Positions 2,541 to 45,256 of a stretch of 64,000 nucleotides of DNA are shown piece by piece (position 1 is the first letter of the stretch; each line of letters begins with the position of its first letter). This DNA comes from Bacteroidota bacterium (GTDB lineage: Bacteria > Bacteroidota > Ignavibacteria > UBA10030 > SZUA-254): contig JAWOKN010000056.1 of the NCBI GenBank assembly GCA_033854175.1, positions 3,736 through 67,735 of the forward strand, written 5' to 3'. Under the pieces are notes generated by a model. The model made no database searches. It was not told the DNA's origin and saw only the letters and a program-made list of their open reading frames with translations. The position numbers were made by a program, and so were the translations under genes.

Positions 2541-3344
2541 TGCAATGCCATCTGCAGTGCTTCGACGACTGCCTCGGCATGCATGTGAATTGGAAGGAAT
2601 GTGCGAACTTGCGACCGATAGGGACAGGTCCCCCCGCCAAGCTGCCGGTTTCCCGGCAGAATAATCTTTGGACAGGCTCCGACCATCATTCTGAATCCAG
2701 ATGGTGGCGGCCTGCGCCTCCTGCATGAAACGAGCCCTATCCTGTTCCGACGCCGAGAGATGGGCCGGAAGGAACTTCAGTGCGACGAACCATCTGAGCT
2801 TGAACCCTCGCGGCCTTATAGACCACTCCCATGCCCCCTTCGTCCAGCTTCTCAAGAACTTTATACCGTGACAGAGTTCGTCCGATCATGAACATCTCTT
2901 GATGAAATATTGCGATATTCGGCTATTGCGAGAGGCAGGTCGTGAATGAATACCAAATCATCCGCTCTCCGTGATCCTCCCCGGAAACGATTCCCCTAAT
3001 CCACCGAGCGGTGACATAAGTCACCCGGGAATTCCATGATCTTCCGGCAGGACCCTGACGATGTCGGAGTATCCGACCCTTCGGCCCGCCCGAGATGGAT
3101 GACACTGTTGTGCTCCCCCCACAGCCGCGTCATTCTTCCGGCGACCGGAACAAGAAATCAGACAAATGAGTATAGATCGAGTCGTAGCCGTATGATCCAA
3201 CACCCCGGTTTGCCGGCATGAAGAAAACGGGAAGATCTCTGAAGAACGGTGCACGGGGTGCGGCTCTTCACCCAAACAGGTCTCACACTTGAGAGATGTA
3301 GATCCCGATCCCCCCGGAAACCAATCGCACGGGGCAACAGAATA

Positions 3345-3360
3345 TGGTGCGCAATTTGCT
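3345..3360 (+). promoter_or_regulatory. Candidate sigma-54 (-24/-12) promoter for the multiheme cytochrome
   Basis: 'TGGTGCGCAATTTGCT' fits TGGYRYR-N4-TTGCW with GG-N10-GC spacing. It lies about 95 nt upstream of the ATG at 3454. Confidence 0.45.
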
Positions 3361-7678: not shown

Positions 7679-7703
7679 CTATTATCGGCAATTATTGTGC
7701 CAC

Positions 7704-7729
7704 AAATCGGATAAATCTATCCAATATTT
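7704..7729. promoter_or_regulatory. Operator-like motif upstream of feoAB, related to the palindrome that follows the Rrf2 gene
   Basis: 'AAATCGGATAAATCTATCCAATATTT' shares the core ATCGGATAAATCTATCCnATATT with 45231..45256. Confidence 0.4.
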
Positions 7730-7810
7730 CAGATAAGGATTCCGCAAATCCGCAGACGGGGGAGGGAATGCCTATCATCTTTGATAAAACGAAAATCACA
7801 CGGAAACCGA

Positions 7811-19660: not shown

Positions 19661-20060
19661 GATCTTGAACGCCAATAAAATGATGAGTCCCAGTACCAGT
19701 TTGTGGGGCGTCAATTAACATGCCAGTTCTTTGAGGGTTTTAGGCTGGTTACAAATGAAATTTGAGGAAATGCGGGATTCAAGCTTTCAAGAGTGAGAAT
19801 CGCTCCTGACGGGGCTTTCAGCGGTGATAATCAAAAAACGGCATGAATCAGAAAGATCGGATATCACGCCGGAAGGGATGAAAGAAGGGGAAAAATCCGG
19901 ATACTGGACCTTGGGAAAATTTTCCCGGATGGAAACAAAACAGTGTCTTTCATCGTTTAAAAGTAACAAACCGAAGGATGAAATTTTCAACACCGGGTGT
20001 TTGGAAATGCATCAAAAAAAACAGTACATTGAAAAAATTCTGAACCAGGAGATCCACTAC

Positions 20061-25370: not shown

Positions 25371-25764
25371 AAACTTTCTCCTCTGTTGATGGTGAATTAA
25401 CTCTGTAATTTATTGCCGATGACAAACCCCCGACCAGAAAAACCGGAAAGACCTGATGAACTCCGGAACACACTTTCTCAACGGCAAGGTACAACCGATG
25501 ACGCGCAAATTCGATTCAACTTTTATGCCATGGGCCCCTTTGGAGGACTGATTTTAAACTTTACTTCCATGATACGGAATTTCCCCCACTCTCGAAAATG
25601 AGAAATCGGGGAAAGGCTCTTCTTATCTCTGAGAATGAAGATCAGGTGTAAATCCAACTATTGATGTATGTTATGTCAATGCCGGGCGACGGATACCCGC
25701 TACCCACTTCCCGGCGGGAAGACCGCTGAGAAGTCACCGGGAGCGTCAGAAGATCCGCGGTCAT

Positions 25765-28767: not shown

Positions 28768-29090
28768 TCCCGGGAGAACAGGCATCAACATCCGGTGGCC
28801 GGCATGCCGGTGGGTGGTGCTTCTTACAAATGAGATTAAAAAATTCCCCTCTTTTCAGGCGTGATAGCTTCCCCGTGTAAATCAAAAAAAAGCGGGACAA
28901 TTTCCATGAATCAGACGACTGAAGGGTGGAATAGTTCTTGCAGATATCGTGGAATTGCGACACTGGCATCCGAGTGGGAACTTCAAAGAAGAAGCACCAT
29001 TCCCGCTCATCGTGGTTACGGATTGAAAACGAACAGATCCGCAGAAGCATAACAGACAGGCACCAAGATACAACAGTGAAGGAACATCGT

Positions 29091-29526: not shown

Positions 29527-32202
29527 ATGATGATCGGCACGCTCATATCCCATTACAAAATACTTGAAAAACTCGGCGAGGGAGGAATGGGTGTGGTATA
29601 CAAGGCGCACGACACAAAGCTCGAGCGCGTGGTTGCGCTGAAATTCCCCCCTCAGGCGCTCACGGCCGACCCGGAGGAGAGGGAGCGGTTTTACCAGGAG
29701 GCCCGATCGGCATCGCAGCTTCTCCACCCGAACGTCTGCACGATCTTTGAGATCAACGAATCGGAGAAGCAAATCTATATTGCCATGGAGTATGTCGACG
29801 GCCCGACCCTCAAGAAACGGATTCAGGCAGACAATCCGATGCCCCTGGGAAAATCCCTTGACATCGCCATCCAGATCTGCAACGGGCTTGTTGCCGCCCA
29901 TGAAAAGGGGATCGTGCACCGGGACATCAAATCCGAGAACATACTGCTGACGGCCAGGGGGGAGGTAAAAATCACCGATTTCGGACTCGCCAAGCTCAAA
30001 GGTGCGGAGAAGCTCACGAAAACAGGAAGTACATTGGGCACTGCCGCCTACATGTCCCCCGAGCAGGCGCGTGGTGAGGATGTCGATGCGAGAAGCGACA
30101 TATTCTCCTGCGGGGTGGTACTGTATGAACTCTTCGCCGGCAGGCTTCCTTTCCGCGGAGAACACCAGGCTGCGATACTCTACTCACTGGTGAACGAAGA
30201 GCCCGCGCCCCTGGCGAGGTTCAATGAGCACGTGTCGCCGGACCTGCAGCATATTGTTTCAAAGGCGCTCGCCAAAGACAGGGAGGACCGTTATCAGCAT
30301 GCCGACGAAATGCTTGCCGACTTGAGGCGGGAACGCAAACGCATGGAGTACGCGCGAACCGGTGTAATCATACAGCCAAAAGTGGTTTCCTCCACGCAAG
30401 AAGTCCAAGCGCAGGAAGCCTCAGACCGTTCGGGAGGCACCAAGCGAGTGATATGGGGCGTCGCCGGTGCTGTCATTCTTCTTGTCGCAGCCGGTATTTA
30501 TCTCACGGTCTGGAAACCCGGACCCAATCAGAGCGCGACAAATTCCGCAATCAGCAAGATTGCGGTACTCCCATTCGAGAACATCGGACCATCCGACAAG
30601 GAATATTTTGCGGACGGTCTCACCGACGAGATACGGACAAAGCTCAGTGGGCTTTCGAATCTGGCCGTCATTGCCCGTGCAAGTTCGATGCAGTACAAAA
30701 AGACCACGAAATCCATCTCGGAAATCGGCACCGAACTCAGTGTCGGTTACCTGTTGCAGGGGACCATACGATGGGAGGAAGGAGGATCGTCCCAGAGTGC
30801 TGTTCACCTTTTGGTAAATCCTTCCCTGGTGAAAATCACCGACGGGACGCAGGTCTGGTCGCAGTCATTCGAAGGGACCCTGTCGAGCGTCTTTCAGATG
30901 CAATCCGACATCGCGCAGCAGGTCGCACGCGCGCTCGAGGTGGCATTGAATCCCAGCGACCAGCAAGTCATCACCTCGAGGCCGACCAACAACGCCGAAG
31001 CGTACGATTACTTTTTACAGGGGCAGCAAAAATTGTATTTGCCGACCTCGGCGGACATGAAAGAGGCGCTTCCGATGTTTGAGAAAGCGATCAAACTTGA
31101 TCCAAAATTTGTCGCCGCCTATGCGGATTTATCCCGTGCGTACGCTTTCGCGACATTTCAGGGAATGAGCCCTGACAGCCTCCTTGTGTTATCGAAGAAA
31201 TCGCTTGACAAGGTCAAAGAACTGGAACCAAATTCGTTTCTGGCAAACTGGTCGGAAGGCTACTACTATTATTACGGGTTCAGAGATTACGACCAGGCAT
31301 TACGGCACTTCACCACGGCACTGAATCTCCAGCCCAACAATGTGGACATCATATCCGCGATCGGGTATGTCAAGCGGAGGCAGGGAAAATTCCAGGAAAG
31401 CCGCGATCTCCTCGCCAGGAGCTGTGATCTTGACCCGCAGGCGTGGCGCAACTGGTTCGAGCTCGGCTATGTAGAGCTCGTCATGCGTCAATATCCTCTG
31501 GCGGACGAACACATGAAGCGGGCGCTCCTGGTTTTCGGCAAGGGAAATGTCGCGGTAGCGGCATATCATTCGCAGGCCATCTTCTCCATGAACGGCGACG
31601 TCAGGGGGGCGCAGGAACTCTTCGACCGGGAGGCCGGCGAAAACAGATCGTGGTTATACAAGATGAGGAGTGCTCAACTCCATCTTGCGGGCGGGAATGT
31701 CGGCGCCGCCATAAATGATCTTTCCCGTGCGGTGCTCTCGGAGCCGGACGTGGATTCCACGGTCTACTACATGTTCTCAGGGCTCCTGCATGAACAATCC
31801 GGGCCCCGTAGTGCAGGGCGTGCTTATTTCGATAGTGCAAGAATTCTCGCAGAAAGAACAGTACACAACGCCCCCAATCAGGCCGTGGCTCACATGAATC
31901 TGGGAATCATCCTGGCTCATCTCGGACAAAAAGCCCGTGCAATTGAGGAGGGGGAAAAGGGGGTACGACTGATGCCGCTGGAAAAGGACGCGCTTGATGA
32001 AGGGCCGAACGCACTCTATGAGTTAGCTCAGATTTACGCTCTCACGGGAGAATCTGACGCTGCAATCGACAAGCTTGAACAGATATTGAGCATTCCAAAC
32101 ATGTACTCGGTCTATTTTGTGCAATCCGATCAGGAGCTTGCATCACTTGCGACGCTGCCCCGGTTTCAGAAATTGCTGGAAAAGTACAAAACTGCGCGGT
32201 AA
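29527..32202 (+). CDS. Serine/threonine protein kinase with one transmembrane helix and an extracytoplasmic TPR-repeat domain
   Basis: Hanks kinase motifs (GEGGMGVVYKA, HRDIKSENILL, DFGLAK), a transmembrane helix (VIWGVAGAVILLVAAGIYLTVW), then TPR-like repeats. Confidence 0.8.
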   Translation: MMIGTLISHYKILEKLGEGGMGVVYKAHDTKLERVVALKFPPQALTADPEERERFYQEARSASQLLHPNVCTIFEINESEKQIYIAMEYVDGPTLKKRIQADNPMPLGKSLDIAIQICNGLVAAHEKGIVHRDIKSENILLTARGEVKITDFGLAKLKGAEKLTKTGSTLGTAAYMSPEQARGEDVDARSDIFSCGVVLYELFAGRLPFRGEHQAAILYSLVNEEPAPLARFNEHVSPDLQHIVSKALAKDREDRYQHADEMLADLRRERKRMEYARTGVIIQPKVVSSTQEVQAQEASDRSGGTKRVIWGVAGAVILLVAAGIYLTVWKPGPNQSATNSAISKIAVLPFENIGPSDKEYFADGLTDEIRTKLSGLSNLAVIARASSMQYKKTTKSISEIGTELSVGYLLQGTIRWEEGGSSQSAVHLLVNPSLVKITDGTQVWSQSFEGTLSSVFQMQSDIAQQVARALEVALNPSDQQVITSRPTNNAEAYDYFLQGQQKLYLPTSADMKEALPMFEKAIKLDPKFVAAYADLSRAYAFATFQGMSPDSLLVLSKKSLDKVKELEPNSFLANWSEGYYYYYGFRDYDQALRHFTTALNLQPNNVDIISAIGYVKRRQGKFQESRDLLARSCDLDPQAWRNWFELGYVELVMRQYPLADEHMKRALLVFGKGNVAVAAYHSQAIFSMNGDVRGAQELFDREAGENRSWLYKMRSAQLHLAGGNVGAAINDLSRAVLSEPDVDSTVYYMFSGLLHEQSGPRSAGRAYFDSARILAERTVHNAPNQAVAHMNLGIILAHLGQKARAIEEGEKGVRLMPLEKDALDEGPNALYELAQIYALTGESDAAIDKLEQILSIPNMYSVYFVQSDQELASLATLPRFQKLLEKYKTAR

Positions 32203-32362
32203 CACCGGACCTGAGGAAGATCCTCAGCCTCCTTCCTGATCATCCCTCCCCCTGGAACCCCCGCATGGGACAGATTCAAAGTCCTGCCTCAATTTTCGAA
32301 AAGAAATTCAAATGAGGCAACGAATCCCGCGATAAAAACCTTCATTTATGATGAAGAATTAT

Positions 32363-32381
32363 TCAACAGTACGTGTTGAAT
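32363..32381. promoter_or_regulatory. Palindrome in an AT-rich leader upstream of the GcvH-like/NrfCD-like cluster
   Basis: TTCAACA-gtacg-TGTTGAA (7-bp perfect arms). A weak sigma-54-like 'TGGCATgatatTTACA' lies at 32560..32575. Confidence 0.3.
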
Positions 32382-32619
32382 AAATAAACGCATTCATAAA
32401 TACTTGTTTTGAAATTATTTACACATCTTCAGCAGCCTTCGCCCGGTTTTCTGTAAAATAATTCATCAACTCTTCTTCATCTCAATCCTGAAAAAAAGTT
32501 TCACTCCCCCATCTTCTTACATATTCACCACTTAGCATCACGGTTTTTTCCATAGTTACTGGCATGATATTTACATAAGTGATGGGTGAATAAATAAGCA
32601 CGCAAGGACAGAAGGAGCA

Positions 32620-33303
32620 GTGAAAATGACAGTCATATTCGTAATAGCGACGATTATATTCTTCCTCACGCTTGATTGGGTTGTGAGGCGGATAAGGGCA
32701 AGAAAAGCAGCACCGGTAACTGCGGTACACCCGTCGGCATATCCGATACGTGTACCGGAGGGGATATTCTTCACCAGATCGCACACCTGGCTCAATCTTT
32801 TCCCCTCGGGGAAAGTACGGCTCGGAATCGATGATTTTGTGGGCCGCATGGTAGAAAACCCGCAGATCATTTTCCTCAAGAAAAGCGGCGAGAGTATCTC
32901 CCGTGGAGAGCCCCTGTTGACGATGAAGGAAGACGAGCATCTGCTGACCGTCAGATCGCCGATCGACGGGGAGATCGAATCGATCAACGAGGAACTCCCG
33001 CGGCATCCCGACCTTTTGAAGGACCTCCTTTTCAGTGACGGCTGGGCATACACGATCAAGCCGAGAAAGTTCTCTGAAATCAAGGGCTTACTTCTCGGGA
33101 CAGAGACGAGGGAATGGATGCGGGCGGAATTCGGCCGTCTGCGTGATTTCTTTGCGGGGATCTCTCACAACGGCACAATAGCCCCGGCCCTCCTGCAGGA
33201 CGGCGGGCCGCCGATGGCGGGCGTCATGAAAACGATGGACGACGCGGTGTGGCAGAATTTCGAGCATGAGTTCCTCACGATCGAAGAATCTGAAAGGGCA
33301 TAG
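32620..33303 (+). CDS. Membrane-anchored GcvH-fold (glycine-cleavage H-protein-like) protein with the lipoyl-lysine position substituted
   Basis: N-terminal transmembrane helix followed by RRIRARK, so the domain is cytoplasmic by the positive-inside rule. A gapless alignment to GcvH (…LPEVG…ESVKAASDIYAPVSGEI…GW.FKIK) places Glu at the lipoyl-Lys position, with a Lys 3 residues earlier. Confidence 0.5.
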   Translation: MKMTVIFVIATIIFFLTLDWVVRRIRARKAAPVTAVHPSAYPIRVPEGIFFTRSHTWLNLFPSGKVRLGIDDFVGRMVENPQIIFLKKSGESISRGEPLLTMKEDEHLLTVRSPIDGEIESINEELPRHPDLLKDLLFSDGWAYTIKPRKFSEIKGLLLGTETREWMRAEFGRLRDFFAGISHNGTIAPALLQDGGPPMAGVMKTMDDAVWQNFEHEFLTIEESERA

Positions 33304-33305
33304 CG

Positions 33306-34124
33306 ATGGCGAGTGCGAAGGCGATGTTAATCGACCTCACGATGTGCATCGGGTGCAATTCGTGTCAGGATGCCTGCAAGAAGGCAAACGGTTTACCCGA
33401 AGGGGAGGAACAGCAGTTATCGGCAACCGCCTATACGGCGCTCAATGAATACAACGGCGTCTATGTCCGGAGGATGTGTCAGCACTGCATCCAGCCGACC
33501 TGTGCATCGGTCTGTCCCGTTGGTGCGTTGAAAAAGACGCCCGAGGGGCCTGTCCTCTACGACGAATCGAAGTGTATCGGCTGCCGGTACTGCATGCAGG
33601 CATGTCCGTTCCAGGTGCCTAGGTACGAGTGGAGCAGCACCTATCCGAGAATCCAGAAATGCCGCTTCTGTGCGGAGAGGCTTGCGAAGGGGATGCCCAC
33701 GGCATGTTCGGAGGCATGTCCGACGGGTGCGACAAAATTCGGCGACCGGGACGAACTGGTGCGCGAGGCCTACCAGCGGATATCCGCGGAACCGGGGAAA
33801 TACATCGACAAGGTCTACGGCCTCCAGGAAGTCGGAGGGACGTCAATACTGTACCTCTCCTCGGTTCCGTTCGAGCAGCTGGGATTCAAGACCCAGCTGG
33901 AGTCCAACGCGCTGCCGCTCCTCACGTGGAACGTGCTGTCGAAGATTCCGAACGTGGTCAGTGTCGGCGGAGTGGCGCTCTTCGGCATCTGGTGGATCAC
34001 CAACCGCCGGATGGAACTCGAGAAAGAGCGAAAAAACGGCCGGGCAAACGGTACGGCGCCGGGGGATGACCATCATTCCCGGAAAGAACAAACCCAACAA
34101 ACCGAGAATGGAGAGAGAGTATGA
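33306..34124 (+). CDS. 4×[4Fe-4S] ferredoxin-type subunit of the NrfC/HybA/PsrB/DsrO family with a C-terminal transmembrane helix
   Basis: Four Cys clusters (CIGCNSCQDAC; CQHCIQPTCASVCP; CIGCRYCMQACP; CRFC…CSEACP). No Tat (RR) signal. C-terminal helix VVSVGGVALFGIWWI. Confidence 0.8.
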   Translation: MASAKAMLIDLTMCIGCNSCQDACKKANGLPEGEEQQLSATAYTALNEYNGVYVRRMCQHCIQPTCASVCPVGALKKTPEGPVLYDESKCIGCRYCMQACPFQVPRYEWSSTYPRIQKCRFCAERLAKGMPTACSEACPTGATKFGDRDELVREAYQRISAEPGKYIDKVYGLQEVGGTSILYLSSVPFEQLGFKTQLESNALPLLTWNVLSKIPNVVSVGGVALFGIWWITNRRMELEKERKNGRANGTAPGDDHHSRKEQTQQTENGERV

Positions 34125-35323
34125 AACGCAGACTTCAGCAACTGACACTCTGGAAGGTCGTCGCCGGGCTGATCATCCTCAGCGGCCTCATATCAACCTA
34201 CGTCCGTTTCGCAAAAGGGCTGGGGGCGGCGACGCACCTGAGCGATCAATTCCCGTGGGGATTATGGATCGGGTTTGACATCCTGTGCGGCGTGGGGCTT
34301 GCGGCCGGGGGGTTCACGCTGGCTGCGATCGTCTACATCTTCAACATCAGGCGGTTTGAAGCGATCATCCGGCCGACCATCTTGACGGCATTCCTCGGCT
34401 ATCTCCTTGTGATTGCCGCGCTGATGTTCGATCTCGGGCGGCCGCTGCAGATATGGCATGCGATCATCATGTGGAACCATCACTCGGTCATGTTCGAGGT
34501 CGCGTGGTGCGTCATGCTCTACACGACAGTTCTCGCCCTTGAATTTTCGCCGATGCTCTTTGAAAAATTCAGGATGAACAACACGCTGAAGACATTCCAC
34601 AAAATCAGCATACCGCTCATTATCCTCGGGGTGATCCTCTCGACGCTGCACCAGTCGTCGCTCGGCTCGCTCTACCTCATCGTGCCCGAGAAGCTCTACG
34701 GCCTCTGGTATTCCGCCTATCTGCCGGTATTCTTCTACGTCTCGGCGATCGCGGTCGGCTGTGCGATGGTCATCTTCGAATCCATCCTGAGTTCCCGGGC
34801 GTTCCGGAAGAGCCTGGAAACGAACCTCCTTGCGGAGCTGGCCCGCATCAGCGTCGTGGCGCTCGCCGTTTACGCCACGATGAAGATCGTCGACTTGAAG
34901 GACCGCGACGTCATCAGCCTCCTCTTCCTCCCCCGCGCCGAGACCTATTTTTACTGGGCTGAGATCACCGTCGGGGTCATCGCACCGATCATACTTTTCT
35001 CCATCAGAAAAGCCCGTGAGAGTCAGACGGGGTTATTCGCCGGGGCCACGATGATCATCACCGGGTTCATCATGAACCGTCTCAACATCAGTCTGACGGG
35101 GATGGAAGGCTGGGCCGGTCTTTCCTACTTCCCGTCATGGATGGAAATTTCCGTCACCCTCACCATCGTCACGGTGGGGTTCATTGCATTCCGGCTTGCG
35201 GCCAAATATCTGCCGGTGTTCAAGCCCGAACTGAACGTTCCCGAAAAGGAATTCGCACACCCGATCGTCGAGGATCTCCACAGCGTCTCATCGTCGCGGG
35301 AACGCTCGATGATACTGGAATAA
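34121..35323 (+). CDS. NrfD/HybB/PsrC/DsrP-family polytopic membrane subunit (quinone-interacting)
   Basis: About 10 predicted transmembrane helices with NrfD-family N-terminal helix signatures. The start overlaps the Fe-S subunit stop by 4 nt. Confidence 0.8.
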   Translation: MKRRLQQLTLWKVVAGLIILSGLISTYVRFAKGLGAATHLSDQFPWGLWIGFDILCGVGLAAGGFTLAAIVYIFNIRRFEAIIRPTILTAFLGYLLVIAALMFDLGRPLQIWHAIIMWNHHSVMFEVAWCVMLYTTVLALEFSPMLFEKFRMNNTLKTFHKISIPLIILGVILSTLHQSSLGSLYLIVPEKLYGLWYSAYLPVFFYVSAIAVGCAMVIFESILSSRAFRKSLETNLLAELARISVVALAVYATMKIVDLKDRDVISLLFLPRAETYFYWAEITVGVIAPIILFSIRKARESQTGLFAGATMIITGFIMNRLNISLTGMEGWAGLSYFPSWMEISVTLTIVTVGFIAFRLAAKYLPVFKPELNVPEKEFAHPIVEDLHSVSSSRERSMILE

Positions 35324-35328
35324 TTGTC

Positions 35329-36087
35329 ATGAACGAGAATCAAAAAAATTACACAATCATCCCTGAAGGAGACTCCCGGTGTGTCTGGATGTCGGCCGGG
35401 ATCCTCAGCTACCAGCTCTGCAACCGCGCATTCGACTGCGACGCATGTCCGCTCGACATGGCGATGCGGCAGCACTTCCCGCGACCCGAGGGGGAGAAGG
35501 ATGAGGCGGCGCCAGGCAGGGAGCGTGAGGAAACAGAACTCCGCGGCGCGTACAGTTACACGGCAACGCATTTCTGGGTAAAGTCGATCTCCACCTCGCT
35601 CTACCGTGTGGGACTTGAACCGGGGATAGCCCACGCATTATTCGTCCCGCGGACCATCGTCTTGCCCGCCTCGGGTGAAACGCTCCAGGCATCGCAGCCC
35701 TGTCTCTGGTTCGTGATGGAGGCCGCGACCGTCCCCTTCGACGCATTCGCCGACGGCGTGGTTGTGACGCAGAATGTGCTCTTGCCGGAGCGGCCCTACA
35801 AAGTCCATTACCATCCGTACGACCAGGGATGGCTCTTTGACATGAAGTTCGACGCAGCGGGGGGTGAGCCGGATCTCCTGACCGCGGTCCAGGCGGAGAA
35901 ACTCTACGGCAGGGACCAGAAACTCTTCCGTGACAGGCTCCGCGACACGCTACAGACCGCGCCGGCTGGAGCGACACTCCAGGACGGCGGACAGCTTTTG
36001 AAAAATCTCCCTGAAATGCTCGGACCGAAGAAATACTTCGATCTCATCGAGGAGATCTTTCTGAAAAGGGGTGTCACAAAAAAATAA
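35329..36087 (+). CDS. Cys4 N-terminal domain fused to a GcvH-fold domain with the lipoyl-lysine position substituted
   Basis: N-terminal 'CVWMSAGILSYQLCNRAFDCDACP', then 'YTATHFWVK…GLEPG…LPASGETLQASQPCLWFVMEAATVPFDAFADGVVV…PYDQGWLFDMKF'. A gapless GcvH alignment puts Ala at the lipoyl-Lys position. ATG at 35329. Confidence 0.5.
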   Translation: MNENQKNYTIIPEGDSRCVWMSAGILSYQLCNRAFDCDACPLDMAMRQHFPRPEGEKDEAAPGREREETELRGAYSYTATHFWVKSISTSLYRVGLEPGIAHALFVPRTIVLPASGETLQASQPCLWFVMEAATVPFDAFADGVVVTQNVLLPERPYKVHYHPYDQGWLFDMKFDAAGGEPDLLTAVQAEKLYGRDQKLFRDRLRDTLQTAPAGATLQDGGQLLKNLPEMLGPKKYFDLIEEIFLKRGVTKK

Positions 36088-36332
36088 CCCGCCGCGAACA
36101 GGCTGGACGGGGGTACCGCTCACCCGGGGGTGTACAGGGGTGGGCGGTAGTTATTCGGGGTGGGGGTGATCCGGTAAAACCACCTTTAACCATTTTGTGA
36201 TAAAATCCCCGAATTCATTTCAAATCTGATAACTCCGGGGGAAAAGACGGGCCGGAGAGAAGCCAAATCTCCGTTTTTCAGTATCATCTCAACCCCCTTT
36301 ATGGCACGAGAATTGACGATAACGGAAATGGT

Positions 36333-37982
36333 ATGAAGGCATTCCGTTCGCTCAGTGTGAGGGTATTTGCGGGGTCATTTCTCCTCCTTGTGACCCTCCT
36401 GGGGCTCTATTCCTATTTTGCGATAAAGTTTCACACCGAACAGATGATGGAGATCGTCCTGGGAAACGCAAGCCGCATCAGCGACATCATCAAGAACTCG
36501 ACCCACTACAGCATGCTCCTCAACAGGAAGGAGGACGTCTACCAGACGATCCTCACCATCGGCAAGGAAAAGGGGGTTGAAGGGATACGGATTTACAACA
36601 AGCGGGGAGAAATCATGGCCTCCTCCCGCACCGAAGAAAAACTGCAGATTGTCGACATGCATGCTGAAGCCTGTTACGTCTGCCATGAGAAGGGAAAACC
36701 CCTGGAATCGCTCGCATCGGACAACAGGATGCGGATCTACACCTCCCCGAAGGGGTACAGGGTACTGGGTTTGATCAACCCCATCCACAACGAGCCAAGC
36801 TGTTCGAATGCCGATTGCCATGCTCATCCGCCTGATAAAACCATACTCGGTGTACTCGACGTTCGGATGTCGCTGGAAAACGTCGACACGGCAATCGCCG
36901 AAGCGCACGCCAAGATGATCAGCTGGGCGGTCGGGGGAGTTCTCCTTGCATCGCTCCTCATCTCGGTCCTCCTCTACAGAACCGTGCATCGGCCCGTCAA
37001 GCGGCTCACGCTGGGGACGCATGAAGTCTCCTCCGGCAACCTCGATCTCCGGATACCCATACACTCGAAGGACGAACTGGGGCAGCTTGCCGAATCGTTC
37101 AATTCGATGACGACCTCATTGCGCAACCTCATTGAAGAGAAAAACACCTGGTCGCGCGAGCTGGAGGAGCGGGTCCGTGAAAAAACCGCCGAGTTGAAGC
37201 ACATTCACGAGCAGATCCTGCAGATTGAAAAGATGACATCGCTCGGGAAGCTCGCGGCGACCGTTGCGCACGAACTGAACAACCCCCTGGAAGGGATCCT
37301 GACCTACGCGAAGCTCCTGGCGAAGCAGCTCAGGAAAGCCGAATTCTCTGCGGACCGGTCAAAGGAATTTCTCGAGGAACTCAATCTCATCATCCAGGAA
37401 ACGGACCGGTGCGGAACGATCGTGAAGAACCTCCTCCTCTTTTCCCGGAAGCAGGTCGGCGAATTCGCGCTTGCGCCTGCGCGGCAGATCGTGGAGAAGG
37501 CCCAGCGTCTCGTGGATCACCACTTCCACATCTCCAACGTGAAATTCGAGGCCACGTACGCGCCTGAGGACGTGTCGCTCATGTGCGACGAAATGCAGAT
37601 CCAGCAGGCCTTGATTGCGCTCTTTGTCAACGCGGTTGAAGCCATGCCGGGGGGCGGCACACTGCGCGTCGATGTCTCGCAGCGTTCGAAGGATGACAAC
37701 ATCATCCTCCGCATTTCGGACACCGGTACGGGGATAGCGGAGGAGGATCTCCACAACATCTTCGAACCATTTTTCACAACAAAAAAGGAGGGTCAGGGTG
37801 TCGGCCTCGGCCTCTCGGTTGTCTACGGCATCGTCGTCCGTCACGGCGGCACGATCAGTGTGGAGTCGAGTCTCAACAAGGGAACGGCATTCACGCTGAC
37901 CTTCCCGGCGCTTGAGCGGAGCACCAAGGGAATCCCGGAGCCGGAGGCGAAAAAATCACCCATTGATCCACACTATGCATAA
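36333..37982 (+). CDS. Sensor histidine kinase with a periplasmic domain carrying heme-c-type motifs
   Basis: Transmembrane helix 1 (FAGSFLLLVTLLGLY), then a ~150-aa periplasmic domain containing 'CYVCH' and 'CSNADCH', then helix 2 and HAMP. The H-box is HELNNPL and the HATPase has a G-box (DTGTGI…GQGVGLGL). Confidence 0.8.
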   Translation: MKAFRSLSVRVFAGSFLLLVTLLGLYSYFAIKFHTEQMMEIVLGNASRISDIIKNSTHYSMLLNRKEDVYQTILTIGKEKGVEGIRIYNKRGEIMASSRTEEKLQIVDMHAEACYVCHEKGKPLESLASDNRMRIYTSPKGYRVLGLINPIHNEPSCSNADCHAHPPDKTILGVLDVRMSLENVDTAIAEAHAKMISWAVGGVLLASLLISVLLYRTVHRPVKRLTLGTHEVSSGNLDLRIPIHSKDELGQLAESFNSMTTSLRNLIEEKNTWSRELEERVREKTAELKHIHEQILQIEKMTSLGKLAATVAHELNNPLEGILTYAKLLAKQLRKAEFSADRSKEFLEELNLIIQETDRCGTIVKNLLLFSRKQVGEFALAPARQIVEKAQRLVDHHFHISNVKFEATYAPEDVSLMCDEMQIQQALIALFVNAVEAMPGGGTLRVDVSQRSKDDNIILRISDTGTGIAEEDLHNIFEPFFTTKKEGQGVGLGLSVVYGIVVRHGGTISVESSLNKGTAFTLTFPALERSTKGIPEPEAKKSPIDPHYA

Positions 37983-37997
37983 CCTCACAGAAAACGT

Positions 37998-39344
37998 ATG
38001 AACAACGATATATCCATACTCATTGTCGACGATGAAAAGGTCGTCCGCGAATCCCTCTCGAAGTGGTTCAAGGAAGACGACTTCATCGTGGGCGCATCAG
38101 AAAACGCGGCTGAAGCCCTGAAACAGCTCCAGGTGCGGAAATGGGACATCATTCTCCTCGACATCAAAATGCCGGGGATGGACGGGATGGAGTTACAGCA
38201 GCGAATCCGGGAGATCGACCCCGGAGCGACGATCATCTTCATCACGGCGCACGCCTCGGTCGACACGGCGGTCCAGGCCCTGAAGGCGGGGGCGTTCGAT
38301 TACATCGCGAAGCCGATCGACCCCGACTACCTGTCGCATCTGATCCAGAACGCCATCAAGCAGCGGATCCTGACGGGAGAAAACATCCGTCTGAAGGAGC
38401 AGATCACCGAATTCGCGAAAGTCGATGAGATCATCGGCGACTCCCCGCAGATGAAGAAGGTCTTCGAACTGATCGAAACGGTGGCAAAGACCGACACGAC
38501 GGTCATGATCCGGGGCGAAAGCGGAACGGGGAAGGAGCTCATCGCGCGGGCGATTCACGGCAACAGCGAACGGCGGTATTTTCCCATCGTCGCCATCAAC
38601 TGCGGGGCATTGCCGGAGGGAATACTGGAAAGCGAACTCTTCGGTCATGAGCGGGGTGCGTTTACCGGGGCGCAGTACAGGAGAAAGGGAAAAATCGAGC
38701 TGGCCGACGGCGGCACATTATTTCTTGACGAGGTCGGCAACATCGGGATGAAGACCCAGATGGACCTCCTCCGTGTAATCGAGACAAAGCAATTTTCGCG
38801 TGTCGGGGGAAACGAGCTGATCAAGGTGGACTTCAGGACCATCTGCGCGACAAACAGGGATCTCGAGAAGGCCGTTCAGGAGGGCACCTTCCGTGAAGAC
38901 CTCTATTACCGTCTCAACGTCTTCTCCGTCCTCGTCCCCCCCTTGCGCGAGCGGAAGTCGGACATCCCCCTGCTGGCAAATTACTTTTTGAAAAAATACT
39001 CGCGATCGATGGGGAAGCCGATCGTGACCATCTCCTCGGACGCGATGGATCTGATGGTCAAATACAACTGGCCCGGGAACATCCGCGAGCTGGAAAACGC
39101 GATAGAGCGGGCGATGGTGGTCGGAAAGCCCCCCTGCATCAAGGCGGTGGATCTGCCGATACAGTTCTCCGATCTCATTGCGGCACCTTCGCTCGGATCT
39201 CTGGCATCGATGGAAAAAAGCCACATCGCCGAGATCCTCCGGATGAACAACTGGAACATCTCCCGGTCCGCGGAAGTCCTGCAGATCGACCGGGTCACTC
39301 TCTACAACAAGATCGAAAAATATGGCCTGAAAAAGCCGCAGTGA
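37998..39344 (+). CDS. Sigma-54-dependent response regulator (NtrC family)
   Basis: Receiver domain (LIVDDE…D54-like 'ILLDIKMPGMDG') plus an AAA+ sigma-54 activator (GESGTGKE, 'ESELFGHERGAFTGA') and a C-terminal HTH. Confidence 0.9.
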   Translation: MNNDISILIVDDEKVVRESLSKWFKEDDFIVGASENAAEALKQLQVRKWDIILLDIKMPGMDGMELQQRIREIDPGATIIFITAHASVDTAVQALKAGAFDYIAKPIDPDYLSHLIQNAIKQRILTGENIRLKEQITEFAKVDEIIGDSPQMKKVFELIETVAKTDTTVMIRGESGTGKELIARAIHGNSERRYFPIVAINCGALPEGILESELFGHERGAFTGAQYRRKGKIELADGGTLFLDEVGNIGMKTQMDLLRVIETKQFSRVGGNELIKVDFRTICATNRDLEKAVQEGTFREDLYYRLNVFSVLVPPLRERKSDIPLLANYFLKKYSRSMGKPIVTISSDAMDLMVKYNWPGNIRELENAIERAMVVGKPPCIKAVDLPIQFSDLIAAPSLGSLASMEKSHIAEILRMNNWNISRSAEVLQIDRVTLYNKIEKYGLKKPQ

Positions 39345-39880
39345 CGACAGCCATCCACATCATGACGACGGCGTCGCACCCGGTAACCGATCTCGGACAC
39401 ATTTCACACACCATACAGAGGATATTCAGCCTACCGGTCGACGTGGTCAAGGGGAGTTTAAACCCGGAGCGTGCGTTCGACAGCTCCCGCCGTCAGTACA
39501 ATTCCACAGCACTCATTGCGCACATCCTCTCCTCCAACGGGGGTGACGGGAGGAAAATCCTCGGGCTTGTGGATGTCGATCTCTTCATCCCGATCCTCAC
39601 CTTTGTCTTCGGCGAGGCACAATTCACCGGCTGTGTTGCTGTCGTCTCCTCCTTCCGTCTTGCGAACCAGTTCTACGGGCTTGAACACGATCCGATCTTA
39701 CTCCGTGACCGGGTCGAAAAGGAAATCGTGCATGAGCTCGGCCACACATTCGGTCTCCACCACTGCAGGCATTTTGACTGTGTCATGCGCTCCTCGACCT
39801 ATGTGGAGGAGATCGACTTAAAAAAGGTGGAGATGTGCGGCACATGTTCGGAAAAACTCCAGCTCATCACCGCGCACTAG
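39341..39880 (+). CDS. amzA: Archaemetzincin-like zinc peptidase (M54)
   Basis: 'HELGHTFGLHHC…DCVM' plus C-terminal 'CGTCSEKL'. The gene overlaps the activator stop by 4 nt. Confidence 0.7.
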   Translation: MTTAIHIMTTASHPVTDLGHISHTIQRIFSLPVDVVKGSLNPERAFDSSRRQYNSTALIAHILSSNGGDGRKILGLVDVDLFIPILTFVFGEAQFTGCVAVVSSFRLANQFYGLEHDPILLRDRVEKEIVHELGHTFGLHHCRHFDCVMRSSTYVEEIDLKKVEMCGTCSEKLQLITAH

Positions 39881-40097
39881 ACGATGCGCGAGCGAGCGCG
39901 CGCGGGTGCGGAAAAACAGAGATTTCACCCCTGCAAAAATCACATTGCAGGCTTTCATTTTTGATAAAAACGCATCCGTTTTTTGAGGTTTCAGAGTTGA
40001 TTCGGCACATTTTGGCTTATGCCTCAATGGAATGATTCTTGCATTTTACTTTGCGGTTTACTTCAATCTTTTACTTTCTCGAAAGGACATTTGAGCC

Positions 40098-45230: not shown

Positions 45231-45256
45231 AATATCGGATAAATCTATCCGATATT
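45231..45256. promoter_or_regulatory. Perfect 11-bp inverted repeat operator-like site immediately after the Rrf2 gene stop
   Basis: AATATCGGATA-AATC-TATCCGATATT. The core recurs upstream of feoAB at 7704..7729. Confidence 0.45.

What the first reader, a model, noticed from the sequence alone, without database searches (positions are those of the whole stretch)
36333..39344. Two-component system with a putative periplasmic heme-c sensor domain and a sigma-54 activator, next to the NrfCD-like module
The periplasmic domain of the kinase, bounded by two transmembrane helices, contains CYVCH (canonical CxxCH) and CSNADCH (Cx4CH). These motifs are otherwise used for covalent heme attachment and would make this a redox- or ligand-sensing c-type heme sensor of the Geobacter GSU0582/GSU0935 type. 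Its partner is an NtrC-type sigma-54 activator. A good sigma-54 promoter (TGGTGCG-N4-TTGCT) lies at 3345..3360 in front of the T9SS multiheme cytochrome, and a weaker one plus a palindrome lies before the NrfCD-like cluster. Together this suggests one regulon linking periplasmic redox state to extracellular and membrane electron-transfer genes.
Basis: partly seen in the sequence, partly recalled or inferred. Interest (0 to 1): 0.55.

Follow-up and report, generated by a model that had tools for sequence, protein, structure and literature searches.

The report
Two-haem periplasmic sensor kinase system
A membrane sensor kinase that most likely carries two covalently bound haems on its outward-facing domain is paired with a sigma-54 activator, and the pair belongs to a seven-gene cluster conserved in at least eight bacterial phyla whose membrane iron-sulfur module it probably switches on.

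Summary
Window 36333..37982 encodes a TM–periplasmic domain–TM–HAMP–HisKA–HATPase kinase with CYVCH (aa 114-118) and CSNADCH (aa 157-163). Window 37998..39344 encodes an intact NtrC-type activator.

Both motifs and Met61 are essentially invariant in 241 homologues. A family profile reaches the solved haem-c sensors GSU0935 and GSU0582. The Cx4CH site aligns with their CxxCH, and Met61 aligns with the helix that carries their distal Met60. The fold is a single Cache domain. CYVCH lies in an extra segment, so this is a two-motif variant of the known sCache_haem family. Such variants have been noted only at motif level (GSU0599, GSU0591).

New here:
- The kinase, activator and an archaemetzincin peptidase are linked to a GcvH-like/HmcB-like/HmcC-like/GcvH-like operon in 80 loci from at least eight phyla.
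- A second palindrome (TTYTYA-N4-TRAKAA) marks eight sigma-54 promoters in the window. These include the kinase's own promoter and, weakly, the cytochrome promoter at 3345.

A single regulon that includes the cytochrome is only weakly supported. Haem binding and the signal sensed are untested.

The parts
36333..37982 (+). Sensor histidine kinase gene (549 aa)
   Evidence: ORF. HAMP aa 213-264, HisKA aa 304-374, HATPase_c aa 419-526. H313 in HELNNP, with N, G1 and G2 boxes present. An identical protein, P0121, is in NCBI.
36348..36425 (+). Transmembrane helix 1 (about aa 6-31), N-terminus inside
   Evidence: Kyte-Doolittle windows above 1.6. AF2 models a continuous helix over aa 7-62.
36426..36914 (+). 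Periplasmic single-Cache (sCache_haem-like) sensor domain, aa 32-194
36513..36515 (+). Met61 codon, candidate distal haem ligand
   Evidence: Invariant in 241 of 241 homologues. It aligns with the MM of the N-terminal helix of 3b42 and 3b47, where Met60 is the distal ligand of GSU0935 (PMC8396549).
36672..36686 (+). CYVCH (aa 114-118), the additional c-haem motif (site 1)
   Evidence: CxxCH in 240 of 241 homologues. It lies in a short helix (aa 112-118) inside a low-confidence loop with pLDDT 61-67. That segment is about 16 residues longer than in 3b42.
36801..36821 (+). CSNADCH (aa 157-163), a Cx4CH motif (site 2) homologous to the haem site of GSU0582/GSU0935
   Evidence: Aligns with 'CQ--SCH' of 3b42 and 3b47. 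The spacing is Cx4CH in 227 homologues and CxxCH in 4. H165, two residues later, is kept in 222 of 232.
36915..36983 (+). Transmembrane helix 2 (about aa 195-217), leading into HAMP
   Evidence: Hydropathy. AF2 helix aa 182-219. HAMP starts at aa 213.
37998..39344 (+). NtrC-type sigma-54-dependent response regulator (448 aa)
   Evidence: Response_reg, Sigma54_activat (237 bits), AAA_lid_14 and HTH_8. D55, GESGTGK and GAFTGA present. It starts 15 nt after the kinase stop. Found after the kinase in 65 of 65 loci.
39341..39880 (+). Archaemetzincin-family (M54) metallopeptidase gene, overlapping the regulator's stop codon
   Evidence: PF07998. NCBIfam archmetzin 162 bits, above its cut-off of 145. 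HELGHTFGLHH motif and 4-nt overlap with the regulator. Found after the regulator in 61 of 65 loci.
36302..36317 (+). Sigma-54-type promoter of the kinase-regulator-peptidase operon (TGGCACGAGAATTGAC; -12 is GA instead of GC)
   Evidence: Identical in L001 and L003; TGGCATAAAGTTTGCC in L005. TGGCAY-N5-YTG lies 29-88 nt (about 40 nt in most) before the kinase start in 37 genome loci, many with a canonical GC.
36217..36232 (+). Type-2 upstream palindrome (ATTTCAAATCTGATAA), 77 bp before the kinase promoter
   Evidence: The orthologous site is present in L001, L003 and L005. A matrix built without this site finds a site 48-87 bp upstream in 22 of 37 genomes, against 0 of 37 control regions.
32352..32390 (+). 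Proposed binding sites of the response regulator.
   Evidence: Conserved in L001, L003 and L005 (alignment A3). With one mismatch or fewer, 64 matches occur in 43 of 80 loci against about 4 expected, and 42 of them lie 3.5-6 kb before the kinase, upstream of the GcvH/NrfCD operon. Loci from Acidobacteriota, KSB1, Calditrichota and Desulfobacterota are included.
32560..32575 (+). Sigma-54-type promoter of the GcvH-like/NrfCD-like operon (TGGCATGATATTTACA; -12 is AC instead of GC)
   Evidence: TGGCA...ATT..CAT is invariant in four loci. Similar TGGCAYG-N4-TTWCA sites lie 52-105 nt before the gene in many loci. L008 has TGGCACGATGATTGAC.
32479..32494 (.). Type-2 palindrome 73 bp before the promoter at 32560
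   Evidence: Not found at this promoter in L001, L003 or L005.
32626..36087 (+). Putative target operon: GcvH-like with N-terminal TM (32626-33303), HmcB/NrfC-like 4Fe-4S protein without signal peptide (33306-34124), HmcC/NrfD-like membrane protein (34121-35323), and GcvH-like with a Cys-rich N-terminus (35329-36087)
   Evidence: Pfam. NCBIfam places HmcB from profile position 35, with HmcC and HybB below their cut-offs. Translations. NrfC plus NrfD lie next to the kinase in 44 of 55 loci.
3345..3360 (+). Sigma-54-type site TGGTGCGCAATTTGCT before the T9SS multihaem cytochrome (gene 3454-5205)
   Evidence: Cytochrome and Por_Secre_tail domains. The orthologue L009 has TGGCATGGAAATTGCG at the same distance.
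3280..3295 (.). Weak type-2 palindrome GTCTCACACTTGAGAG, 57 bp before the site at 3345
   Evidence: Two mismatches to the pattern. Matrix score 13.1, against 15.8-18.7 for the other sites in the window. No counterpart in L009.
39922..40043 (+). PFOR promoter region: type-2 palindromes at 39922 and 39952, then TGGAATGATTCTTGCA at 40028
   Evidence: The same layout, with sites 67/68 and 97/98 bp upstream, is found in L001, L003 and L005.
25515..25635 (-). gdh promoter region: TGGCATAAAAGTTGAA (25530-25515), with type-2 palindromes at 25589 and 25620
   Evidence: The same layout is found in L001 and L003.
19710..19830 (-). Alanine dehydrogenase promoter region: TGGCATGTTAATTGAC (19725-19710), with type-2 palindromes at 19784 and 19815
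   Evidence: Gene identity.
28821..28942 (+). hypC-like gene promoter region: type-2 palindromes at 28821 and 28852, then TGGAATAGTTCTTGCA at 28927
   Evidence: The promoter is conserved in L001 (5282) and L003 (5470).
7687..7787 (-). feoAB promoter region: TGGCACAATAATTGCC (7702-7687), with a type-2 palindrome at 7772
   Evidence: feoA-like ORF 7373-7678 and feoB.

Best explanation
**What it is.** The pair is a working two-component system. Its input domain is a periplasmic single-Cache domain of the haem-c type (sCache_haem, the GSU0582/GSU0935 family).

**The sensor (homology shown; haem binding and mechanism inferred).**
- The domain most likely carries two covalently attached haems.
- The haem at CSNADCH (His163 proximal) sits where the Geobacter sensors hold theirs. 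The invariant Met61 on the N-terminal helix is its likely switchable distal ligand.
- The haem at CYVCH (His118 proximal) sits in a family-specific insertion. It may use His165 as second ligand and act as an electron entry point.
- A change of redox state, or binding of a diatomic ligand such as NO or CO, would displace or restore the Met ligand. That movement would pass through TM2 and HAMP to set autophosphorylation at His313.

**The output (partly shown, partly inferred).**
- Phosphotransfer to Asp55 would assemble the AAA+ activator.
- I propose that it binds the tandem TGTTGA-N5-TCAACA palindromes at 32352-32390. From there it would open the sigma-54 promoter at 32560 and drive the adjacent operon, GcvH-like/HmcB-like/HmcC-like/GcvH-like.
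- That operon encodes a quinone-linked iron-sulfur membrane module whose substrate is unknown.
- The kinase-regulator-archaemetzincin operon has its own sigma-54 promoter at 36302. It lies behind a different palindrome that is shared with seven other sigma-54 promoters in the window.
- The system therefore sits inside a wider sigma-54 network. That network includes PFOR, gdh, alaDH, feoAB and, weakly, the T9SS cytochrome.

**Status of each step.**
- Shown: the domain architectures, motif conservation, remote homology, gene linkage and cis-element conservation.
- Inferred: haem attachment, the signal sensed, and which palindrome the regulator binds.
For: **Architecture**
- Domain architecture and catalytic residues are intact.

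**Haem binding**
- Both motifs, each with the His directly after the second Cys, and Met61 are invariant in 241 homologues that reach down to about 36% identity.
- Four homologues have CxxCH instead of Cx4CH at site 2. That swap is expected for a haem site and not for a structural disulfide.
- The sensor profile hits the solved haem-c sensors 3b42 (E 2.7e-5) and 3b47 (E 0.005). Site 2 aligns on their CxxCH, and Met61 aligns on their MM helix.
- Met60 is the redox-linked distal ligand in GSU0935 (PMC8396549).
- The same organism makes c-type cytochromes.
- Two-motif variants are reported for GSU0599, GSU0591, Adeh_2011 and Adeh_3383.

**Output**
- The regulator follows the kinase in 65 of 65 loci. 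NrfC plus NrfD are adjacent in 44 of 55 loci across at least eight phyla.
- TGTTGA-N5-TCAACA occurs only before this operon in the window.
- In 80 loci there are 64 matches against about 4 expected, and 42 of them lie upstream of the operon. Loci from Acidobacteriota, KSB1, Calditrichota and Desulfobacterota are included.
- This palindrome is therefore the element that travels with the regulator.
- A conserved -24/-12 element lies between the palindromes and the gene.
- The regulator is the only sigma-54 activator gene in the 64 kb window.

**Precedent**
- In Geobacter the sigma-54 regulator BccR (GSU0598) is needed to induce the cbcBA cytochrome operon as redox potential falls.
- From its locus number GSU0598 should lie next to the two-motif kinase GSU0599; the papers read do not state this.
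Against: - No haem chemistry can be tested here. AF2 models the site-1 loop with low confidence (pLDDT 61-67).
- The protein does not reach Pfam's threshold for PF21563 (19.4 against 27 bits) and does not hit PF11845.
- 3b42, 3b47 and 5b82 are not among the top structural matches.
- Both local promoters deviate at the -12 GC (AC at 32560, GA at 36302).
- The regulator's own operon carries the other palindrome, not TGTTGA-N5-TCAACA. Which motif the regulator binds is therefore open.
- Type-1 palindromes were found with one mismatch or fewer in only 43 of 80 loci.
- The NrfC-like protein lacks a signal peptide. The link between a periplasmic signal and the module's function is therefore unclear.
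- rpoN itself is not in the window.
Confidence: 0.6

Rival explanations
1. The sensor is the same, but the regulator is a broad (global) activator. It binds the TTYTYA-N4-TRAKAA palindrome and directly drives all eight sigma-54 promoters in the window: its own operon, PFOR, gdh, alaDH, hypC-like, feoAB, the GcvH/NrfCD operon and the T9SS cytochrome. This is. TGTTGA-N5-TCAACA would then belong to another regulator.
For: - The pattern gives 17 matches against 2.2 expected.
- Eight promoters have a site 57-98 bp upstream, against 0.37 in shuffles with a maximum of 2.
- Dual sites at 67 and 98 bp resemble NtrC-type tandem sites. Sites that were not used to build the matrix (25589, 39922, 7772, 3280) fall at those distances.
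- The layout is conserved at the gdh, PFOR and kinase promoters in L001, L003 and L005.
- The palindrome lies before the kinase's own promoter in 22 of 37 genomes, against 0 of 37 controls. That fits autoregulation.
- The regulator is the only activator gene in 64 kb.
Against: - This motif was seen only in the Ignavibacteriota/Bacteroidota-type loci. The kinase-regulator-NrfCD linkage spans at least eight phyla, and there TGTTGA-type sites are what persist.
- The motif is absent at the GcvH/NrfCD promoter of L001, L003 and L005 and at the cytochrome orthologue L009.
- A genome usually encodes several sigma-54 activators, and only 64 kb was seen.
- The copy at 3280 is weak, with two mismatches.
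Confidence: 0.25
2. The haem domain is chiefly a gas sensor (NO, perhaps CO) rather than a redox-potential sensor. The system would be a nitrosative-stress or NO-signalling switch.
For: - sCache_haem domains fused to signalling modules bind NO, not O2, in the 2026 preprint (PMC12889525).
- GSU0582 and GSU0935 bind NO and CO with displacement of Met60 (PMC8396549).
- An Rrf2-family regulator, cytochrome bd oxidase and OsmC genes lie nearby.
Against: - Nothing in the conserved module is a known NO-detoxifying enzyme.
- A second haem is not needed for gas sensing. It fits electron exchange better.
- The Geobacter analogue responds to falling redox potential.
- The two readings are not exclusive.
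Confidence: 0.3
3. The cysteines do not bind haem. They form two disulfides or a metal (Zn or Fe) site, and the Cache domain senses a small-molecule ligand or thiol redox state instead.
For: - The domain is a classical Cache fold, and Cache domains normally bind small ligands.
- The Pfam haem-sensor model is below its threshold.
- There is no experimental evidence of haem for any two-motif member.
Against: - The His directly after the second Cys is invariant in both motifs. So is Met61, which aligns to a known distal ligand.
- Site 2 aligns residue for residue with a crystallographically proven haem site.
- The spacing alternates between CxxCH and Cx4CH, both known haem-attachment spacings (Cx4CH in Desulfovibrio cytochrome c3 is from my own knowledge).
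- Disulfide or zinc sites have no need for an adjacent His plus a distant Met.
Confidence: 0.1

Closest known systems
GSU0582 / GSU0935 periplasmic haem-c sensor domains of Geobacter sulfurreducens chemoreceptors (PDB 3B47 and 3B42); the sCache_haem family (DUF3365/Tll0287, PMC12889525)
   Same: - Periplasmic, between two TM helices and followed by HAMP.
- Single Cache fold.
- The haem motif lies in the short helix before the last strands, and it aligns.
- A Met on the N-terminal helix aligns with the distal ligand Met60.
- A sequence profile detects the relationship.
   Different: - The aligned motif here is Cx4CH, not CxxCH (227 of 241 homologues).
- A second, invariant CxxCH sits in an insertion of about 16 residues.
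- The output is a histidine kinase, not an MCP.
- The protein is below the Pfam thresholds for PF21563 and PF11845.
GSU0599 (two-motif sensor kinase) with BccR (GSU0598) and the cbcBA operon of G. sulfurreducens (bioRxiv 10.1101/2021.04.15.440034; PMC8396549)
   Same: - A signal-transduction protein with two CX2-4CH motifs whose locus number places it next to an NtrC-type sigma-54 regulator gene (adjacency is not stated in the papers read).
- That regulator activates a neighbouring membrane quinone-linked redox complex from a sigma-54 promoter when redox potential falls.
   Different: - The target there is a dihaem b / seven-haem c cytochrome pair. Here it is an HmcBC-like iron-sulfur/NrfD module with GcvH-like proteins.
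- No archaemetzincin is reported there.
- Sequence relatedness of GSU0599 to this kinase could not be tested (one search did not reach Geobacter).
- The kinase's role has not been shown experimentally in Geobacter either.
NtrB/NtrC, ZraS/ZraR and AtoS/AtoC-type sigma-54 two-component systems
   Same: - The cytoplasmic half of the kinase and the whole regulator score best against AtoS/ZraS and AtoC/NtrC/ZraR models, below their equivalog cut-offs.
- There are tandem upstream sites about three helical turns apart.
- The system's own operon has a sigma-54 promoter.
   Different: - The input domain is a periplasmic haem-Cache domain.
- The binding-site sequences are unrelated to the NtrC site.
- The -12 elements are non-canonical.
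HmcB/HmcC, HybA/HybB and other NrfCD-type modules
   Same: - The putative target encodes a 4Fe-4S protein with a C-terminal TM helix. Its best match is HmcB (254 bits, cut-off 420).
- It also encodes an NrfD-family membrane subunit. Its best match is HmcC (342 bits, cut-off 550).
   Different: - There is no signal peptide on the iron-sulfur subunit.
- The operon has no cytochrome or catalytic subunit.
- It is flanked by two GcvH-fold proteins that lack a Lys at the lipoyl position.
- A review of NrfD-like complexes does not mention glycine-cleavage proteins or histidine kinases.

Membership tests
sCache_haem (GSU0582/GSU0935, Tll0287/DUF3365) | Extracytoplasmic single-module Cache fold | tested here: met
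sCache_haem (GSU0582/GSU0935, Tll0287/DUF3365) | Canonical CXXCH in a short helix inserted before the last beta strands | tested here: inconclusive
   A motif sits at the homologous position (helix aa 155-158) and aligns with the CxxCH of 3b42 and 3b47. It is Cx4CH here and in 227 of 241 homologues, and CxxCH in only 4.
sCache_haem (GSU0582/GSU0935, Tll0287/DUF3365) | Match to the family's sequence models | tested here: not met
   PF21563 scores 19.4 bits, below its cut-off of 27. There is no PF11845 hit at E <= 0.01. Remote homology is nevertheless detected by a family profile (3b42 E 2.7e-5), and some homologues carry precomputed PF21563 hits.
sCache_haem (GSU0582/GSU0935, Tll0287/DUF3365) | Covalently bound c-type haem | not testable with these tools
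   Needs haem staining, spectroscopy or mass spectrometry of the expressed domain.
sCache_haem (GSU0582/GSU0935, Tll0287/DUF3365) | Distal Met on the N-terminal helix (Geobacter subgroup) | tested here: met
   M61 is invariant in 241 of 241 and aligns with the MM pair of 3b42 and 3b47. The role of Met60 comes from PMC8396549.
NtrC-type sigma-54 enhancer-binding response regulator | Receiver domain with phospho-acceptor Asp, AAA+ sigma-54 interaction domain with GAFTGA, and a C-terminal Fis-type HTH | tested here: met
   PF00072, PF00158 (237 bits), PF25601 and PF02954. D55, GESGTGK and GAFTGA at aa 220.
HisKA-type sensor histidine kinase | HAMP, HisKA with a conserved His, and HATPase_c with N and G boxes | tested here: met
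   Pfam hits are above their cut-offs. H313, NAVEA, DTGTG and GQGVGL are present.
Sigma-54 (-24/-12) promoter | GG and GC separated by 10 nt, upstream of a gene, with an activator site farther upstream | tested here: inconclusive
   - 3345: GG-N10-GC is met, with two mismatches to the consensus.
- 32560: -12 is AC.
- 36302: -12 is GA.
- Orthologous kinase promoters in many genomes have a canonical GC.
- The consensus count is not above chance overall, but sites are enriched in upstream zones and paired with palindromes.
- Transcription starts were not determined.
GSU0599/BccR-type redox-responsive system | Sequence relatedness of the kinase to GSU0599 and of the regulator to BccR | not tested
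   The Geobacter sequences could not be retrieved. The similarity rests on published descriptions.

The most novel reading that the evidence does not exclude
The seven-gene unit may be an undescribed, widely distributed redox-sensing module of anaerobes. The unit is GcvH-like, signal-peptide-less HmcB-like, HmcC/NrfD-like, GcvH-like, dihaem Cache kinase, sigma-54 activator and archaemetzincin.

In this reading a two-haem periplasmic sensor reads the redox state of the periplasm or quinone pool. Through its own palindromic enhancer it then switches on a new kind of quinone-linked iron-sulfur complex. That complex would use non-lipoylated GcvH-fold proteins as cytoplasmic partners, and the co-translated metalloprotease would act as a further regulatory component.

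In Ignavibacteriota the unit would be nested in a large sigma-54 network that governs PFOR, amino-acid dehydrogenases, ferrous iron uptake and a secreted multihaem cytochrome.
Probability: 0.3. Interest if true: 0.75.

Novelty: new variant of a known kind. Interest (0 to 1): 0.55.

Why it matters
- Haem-c Cache sensors were defined as a family only recently, and only single-haem members have been studied. A two-haem kinase subfamily would be a natural test case for how periplasmic redox or gas signals reach transcription in anaerobes that lack FNR/Arc-type paradigms.
- The subfamily is large: about 1,200 clusters at 50% identity at E <= 1e-10, and at least 305 matching stretches confirmed in the one-genome-per-species collection.
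- Its strict linkage to an uncharacterised HmcBC-like/GcvH-like membrane module and to an archaemetzincin gives all three a testable functional context.
- The two conserved palindromes give concrete binding-site predictions. They also give a first view of a sigma-54 network in Ignavibacteriota that covers PFOR, gdh, alaDH, feoAB and a T9SS multihaem cytochrome.

Tried and rejected
1. A single-sequence search of the sensor against PDB sequences gave nothing relevant. Only the family profile reached 3b42 and 3b47.
A narrower alignment, A4, worked.
4. My first palindrome pattern used the wrong spacer (N6) and matched nothing relevant. N5 is correct.
5. Counting sigma-54 consensus matches in the window showed no excess over chance. 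I therefore rejected the idea that the 3345 site is significant on sequence alone.
6. A search for type-1 palindromes near the 3345 promoter found only a two-mismatch match 450 bp upstream (2889-2905), which is at chance level.
7. The cytochrome orthologue L009 keeps the promoter but shows no type-2 palindrome. L010 has no promoter because the gene follows another gene there.
8. A third homologue search, started from a deltaproteobacterial sensor to reach Geobacter GSU0599, returned only close fragments.
9. Literature searches found no prior description of the module. They covered archaemetzincin/sigma-54/NrfD and NrfD/GcvH, plus a review of NrfD-like complexes.
10. I checked whether the GcvH-like proteins are lipoyl carriers. 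Neither has Lys at the position aligned to the lipoyl-Lys of E. coli GcvH.

Full report
**1. Checking the observation**

The kinase:
- Hydropathy shows two membrane helices, about aa 6-31 and 195-217, around a domain of about 160 residues.
- CYVCH lies at aa 114-118 (nt 36672-36686) and CSNADCH at aa 157-163 (nt 36801-36821).
- These four Cys are the only Cys before residue 360.
- Pfam finds HAMP (213-264), HisKA (304-374) and HATPase_c (419-526).
- The phospho-acceptor His313 and the N and G boxes are present.

The partner:
- It has Response_reg, Sigma54_activat (237 bits), AAA_lid_14 and HTH_8.
- Asp55, the Walker A motif and GAFTGA are present.

- The site at 3345..3360 is TGGTGCGCAATTTGCT.
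- The palindrome at 32363..32379 is TCAACAGTACGTGTTGA.
- Both are exactly as stated.

**2. The sensor domain**

Conservation. Homologues of the sensor region are numerous and come from many phyla.
- In a 39-sequence alignment, C114, C117, H118, C162, H163 and M61 are invariant, and C157 is nearly so. Two members have CxxCH in place of Cx4CH at the second site.
- Over 241 sequences the picture holds. M61, C114 and C117 are kept in 241 of 241, and H118 in 240.
- The second motif is Cx4CH in 227 sequences and CxxCH in 4. The rest are truncated.
- H165 is kept in 222 of 232.

Homology to solved structures.
- A single-sequence search of PDB sequences found nothing.
- A profile of the periplasmic domain alone hit 3b42 (E 2.7e-5) and 3b47 (E 0.005), the Geobacter chemoreceptor sensor domains GSU0582 and GSU0935.
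- The N-terminal helix aligns, with our invariant Met on their MM pair.
- The segment 'LGLINPIxNEPxCsnaxCH' aligns with 'LSLVLPFPNEQRCQ--SCH'.
- The Cx4CH motif is therefore the counterpart of the proven haem site.
- CYVCH lies in the stretch between the two aligned blocks, which is about 16 residues longer here.

Fold.
- AlphaFold2 gives a confident model (pLDDT 85.8), except for the loop around CYVCH at 61-67.

Literature.
- A 2026 preprint defines these domains as 'sCache_haem'. They are Cache domains with a short helix between two strands that carries CXXCH. The family includes GSU0582, GSU0935 and Tll0287, and its signalling members bind NO (PMC12889525).
- In the Geobacter domains Met60 is the distal ligand. 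Its binding follows haem reduction, and CO or NO displaces it (PMC8396549).
- Variants with two motifs have been noted only at motif level, in GSU0591, GSU0599, Adeh_2011 and Adeh_3383.

Family size.
- 2,208 cluster representatives at 50% identity match at E <= 1e-3.
- 1,233 match at E <= 1e-10.
- Most are kinases of about 540-560 aa.

**3. Genomic context**

The organism belongs to the Ignavibacteriota/Bacteroidota group.
- An identical protein is in NCBI on a 75.7 kb contig.
- The closest named relatives are Bacteroidota and Ignavibacteriae MAGs.

The neighbourhood is conserved.
- In three relatives (62-80% identical kinases) the order is GcvH-like, NrfC-like, NrfD-like, GcvH-like, kinase, regulator, M54 peptidase. 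PFOR, a DHODH-like gene and an Rrf2 regulator lie nearby.
- The same core appears around sensors only about 40% identical. One is an Acidobacteria-like contig where a small cytochrome c replaces the first GcvH-like gene.
- A scan of one genome per species confirmed 305 matching stretches.
- The 80 best loci span Ignavibacteriota, Bacteroidota, Acidobacteriota, Gemmatimonadota, KSB1, Calditrichota, Zixibacteria, Desulfobacterota and candidate phyla.

| Gene near the kinase | Loci with enough flank that have it |
|---|---|
| Regulator directly after the kinase | 65 of 65 |
| M54 peptidase after the regulator | 61 of 65 |
| NrfC-like plus NrfD-like within 8 kb | 44 of 55 |

The neighbouring proteins:
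- The NrfC-like protein matches HmcB and HybA best, but its alignment starts at profile position 35. It has no signal peptide, and it has a C-terminal TM helix.
- The NrfD-like protein matches HmcC best.
- The first GcvH-like protein has an N-terminal TM helix followed by positive charges.
- The peptidase is a bona fide archaemetzincin (NCBIfam 162 bits, cut-off 145). It has an intact HExxHxxGxxH motif and overlaps the regulator's stop by 4 nt.

**4. Promoters and upstream elements**

The sigma-54 consensus with two mismatches or fewer is not over-represented in the window: 19 found against 22.5 expected. However, 7 of the 19 lie in same-strand upstream zones that make up 5% of positions (P about 2e-5).

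Three lines of conservation make the local sites credible.

(a) The promoter before the first GcvH-like gene.
- Four loci share TGGCA...ATT..CAT. In the window this is 32560, TGGCATGATATTTACA.
- Farther upstream they share tandem TGTTGA-N5-TCAACA palindromes (alignment A3).
- Many other loci have TGGCAYG-N4-TTWCA 52-105 nt before the gene.

(b) The promoter before the kinase.
- TGGCACGAGAATTGAC (36302) is identical in L001 and L003. In L005 it is TGGCATAAAGTTTGCC.
- Thirty-seven genome loci have TGGCAY-N5-YTG 29-88 nt (about 40 nt in most) before the start, many with a canonical GC.

(c) The cytochrome promoter.
- The cytochrome's real start is ATG 3454, so the 3345 site is 94-109 nt upstream.
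- A 65%-identical orthologue (L009) has TGGCATGGAAATTGCG at the same distance in otherwise unalignable DNA.

**5. Two different palindromes**

Type 1 is TGTTGA-N5-TCAACA.
- In the window it occurs only at 32352-32390.
- Across the 80 loci it occurs 64 times with one mismatch or fewer. About 4 would be expected from the pattern's information content over 0.98 Mb.
- 42 of those lie 3.5-6 kb upstream of the kinase, in front of the GcvH/NrfCD operon. Loci from Acidobacteriota, KSB1, Calditrichota, Syntrophorhabdus and other Deltaproteobacteria are included.
- TCAACAC-like repeats are also seen there in L006 and L008.

Type 2 is TTYTYA-N4-TRAKAA.
- I found it while comparing the DNA upstream of the kinase promoter.
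- It gives 17 matches in the window against 2.2 expected.
- With a matrix built from the sites, eight -24/-12 sites have such a palindrome 57-98 bp upstream. Shuffled sequence gives 0.37 on average, with a maximum of 2.

| Promoter (-24 end, strand) | Gene(s) | Type-2 palindromes | Distance upstream (bp) |
|---|---|---|---|
| 7702 (-) | feoAB | 7772 | 78 |
| 19725 (-) | alanine dehydrogenase | 19784, 19815 | 67, 98 |
| 25530 (-) | glutamate dehydrogenase | 25589, 25620 | 67, 98 |
| 28927 (+) | hypC-like | 28852, 28821 | 67, 98 |
| 32560 (+) | GcvH-like/NrfCD-like operon | 32479 | 73 |
| 36302 (+) | kinase-regulator-peptidase operon | 36217 | 77 |
| 40028 (+) | PFOR | 39952, 39922 | 68, 98 |
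| 3345 (+) | T9SS cytochrome | 3280 (weak, two mismatches) | 57 |

- Four promoters have two sites, at 67/68 and 98 bp. Several of those second sites were not used to build the matrix.
- The layout recurs at the gdh, PFOR and kinase promoters of L001, L003 and L005.
- A matrix that omits the kinase site still finds a site before the kinase promoter in 22 of 37 genomes, against 0 of 37 control regions.
- No type-2 site was found for the cytochrome orthologue L009, or at the GcvH/NrfCD promoter of L001, L003 or L005.

**6. Interpretation**

- The regulator is the only sigma-54 activator gene in the window. It is also the only regulator that travels with the module across phyla.
- The cis-element that travels with the module is type 1. 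I therefore assign type 1 to this regulator and take the GcvH/NrfCD operon as its direct target.
- Type 2 marks a broader sigma-54 group seen only in the Ignavibacteriota-type loci. That group includes the system's own operon.
- Type 2 could belong to another activator, which would make a cascade. Less likely, it belongs to this regulator, which is the global-regulator rival at 0.25.
- Geobacter offers a functional precedent. BccR (GSU0598) is required to induce cbcBA as redox potential falls. Its locus number places it next to the two-motif kinase GSU0599, although the papers read do not state the adjacency.

**7. What the sensor detects**

- By analogy with GSU0582/GSU0935 and the sCache_haem proteins, the site-2 haem with its Met61 on/off switch could report redox potential, NO or CO.
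- The extra site-1 haem may use His165 as sixth ligand. It fits a relay that equilibrates the sensor with periplasmic or membrane redox carriers. That is why I favour redox sensing, but the data do not decide.
- A non-haem role for the cysteines is unlikely, given the invariant His after each second Cys, the invariant Met, and the residue-level alignment to a proven haem site. It cannot be excluded without biochemistry.

**8. Novelty and verdict**

- A haem-c Cache sensor coupled to a sigma-54 two-component system is a known kind.
- This is a two-motif, Cx4CH-bearing variant that has not been characterised.
- To my knowledge, and in the literature I could search, two things have not been described. 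One is its tight and phylogenetically wide linkage to an HmcBC-like/GcvH-like module and an archaemetzincin. The other is the pair of conserved enhancer-like palindromes.
- Interest is moderate (0.55). It would be higher if the module proves to be a new redox-sensing and respiratory unit.

Noticed in passing
window 7687-7787, 19710-19830, 25515-25635, 28821-28942, 39922-40043 (also 3280-3360, 32479-32575, 36217-36317): Eight sigma-54-type promoters cluster in 64 kb, each preceded by a 16-bp palindrome TTYTYA-N4-TRAKAA. Four of them carry two copies, 67/68 and 98 bp upstream. The genes served are feoAB, alanine dehydrogenase, glutamate dehydrogenase, a hypC-like gene, PFOR, the GcvH/NrfCD operon, the kinase operon and, weakly, the T9SS cytochrome.
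   Followed up: yes
window 32626-36087: This is an HmcB/HmcC-like (NrfCD-type) pair whose iron-sulfur subunit has no signal peptide. It is flanked by two GcvH-fold proteins, one membrane-anchored and one with a Cys-rich N-terminus (CVWM...C...FDCDACP). Neither has a Lys at the lipoyl position. The operon contains no catalytic or cytochrome subunit, and its function is unknown.
   Followed up: partly
window 39341-39880: The archaemetzincin (M54) metalloprotease gene overlaps the regulator's stop codon by 4 nt. It follows the regulator in 61 of 65 related loci across phyla, so this cytoplasmic protease of unknown role is part of the signalling unit.
   Followed up: partly
window 29527-32202: A Ser/Thr protein kinase with TPR repeats lies between the hypC-like gene and the GcvH/NrfCD operon. 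It is absent at this place in the syntenic loci L001 and L003, so it looks like a lineage-specific insertion.
   Followed up: no
window 45256-45271 and gene 45328-46578: The only perfect sigma-54 consensus in the window (TGGCACAGATGTTGCA) lies about 70 nt before a NapH/MauN-like membrane ferredoxin gene. L001 has TGGCATAATAGTTGCG at the same place. No upstream palindrome of either type was paired with it, but a strong type-2 match lies downstream at 45349.
   Followed up: partly
window 3454-5205: This multihaem c-type cytochrome has MtrC/MtrF-like domain hits and a C-terminal T9SS sorting domain. It would be a cytochrome exported by the type IX secretion system. An orthologue at 65% identity was found in a metagenome contig (L009).
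   Followed up: partly
loci L025, L028, L034, L039, L044, L045 at about +3564 to +3573 from the kinase start; L022, L029, L071, L073, L074, L089 at -30 to -75: Further copies of the TGTTGA-N5-TCAACA palindrome lie just after the M54 gene in six genomes and just before the kinase gene in six others. The element may therefore have additional targets or serve autoregulation in some lineages.
   Followed up: no
window 20845-23826 (- strand): This 993-aa protein has a PPDK_N (PEP-utilising, ATP-binding) domain and a weak N-terminal receiver-domain hit. It is conserved next to gdh in L001 and L003.
   Followed up: no
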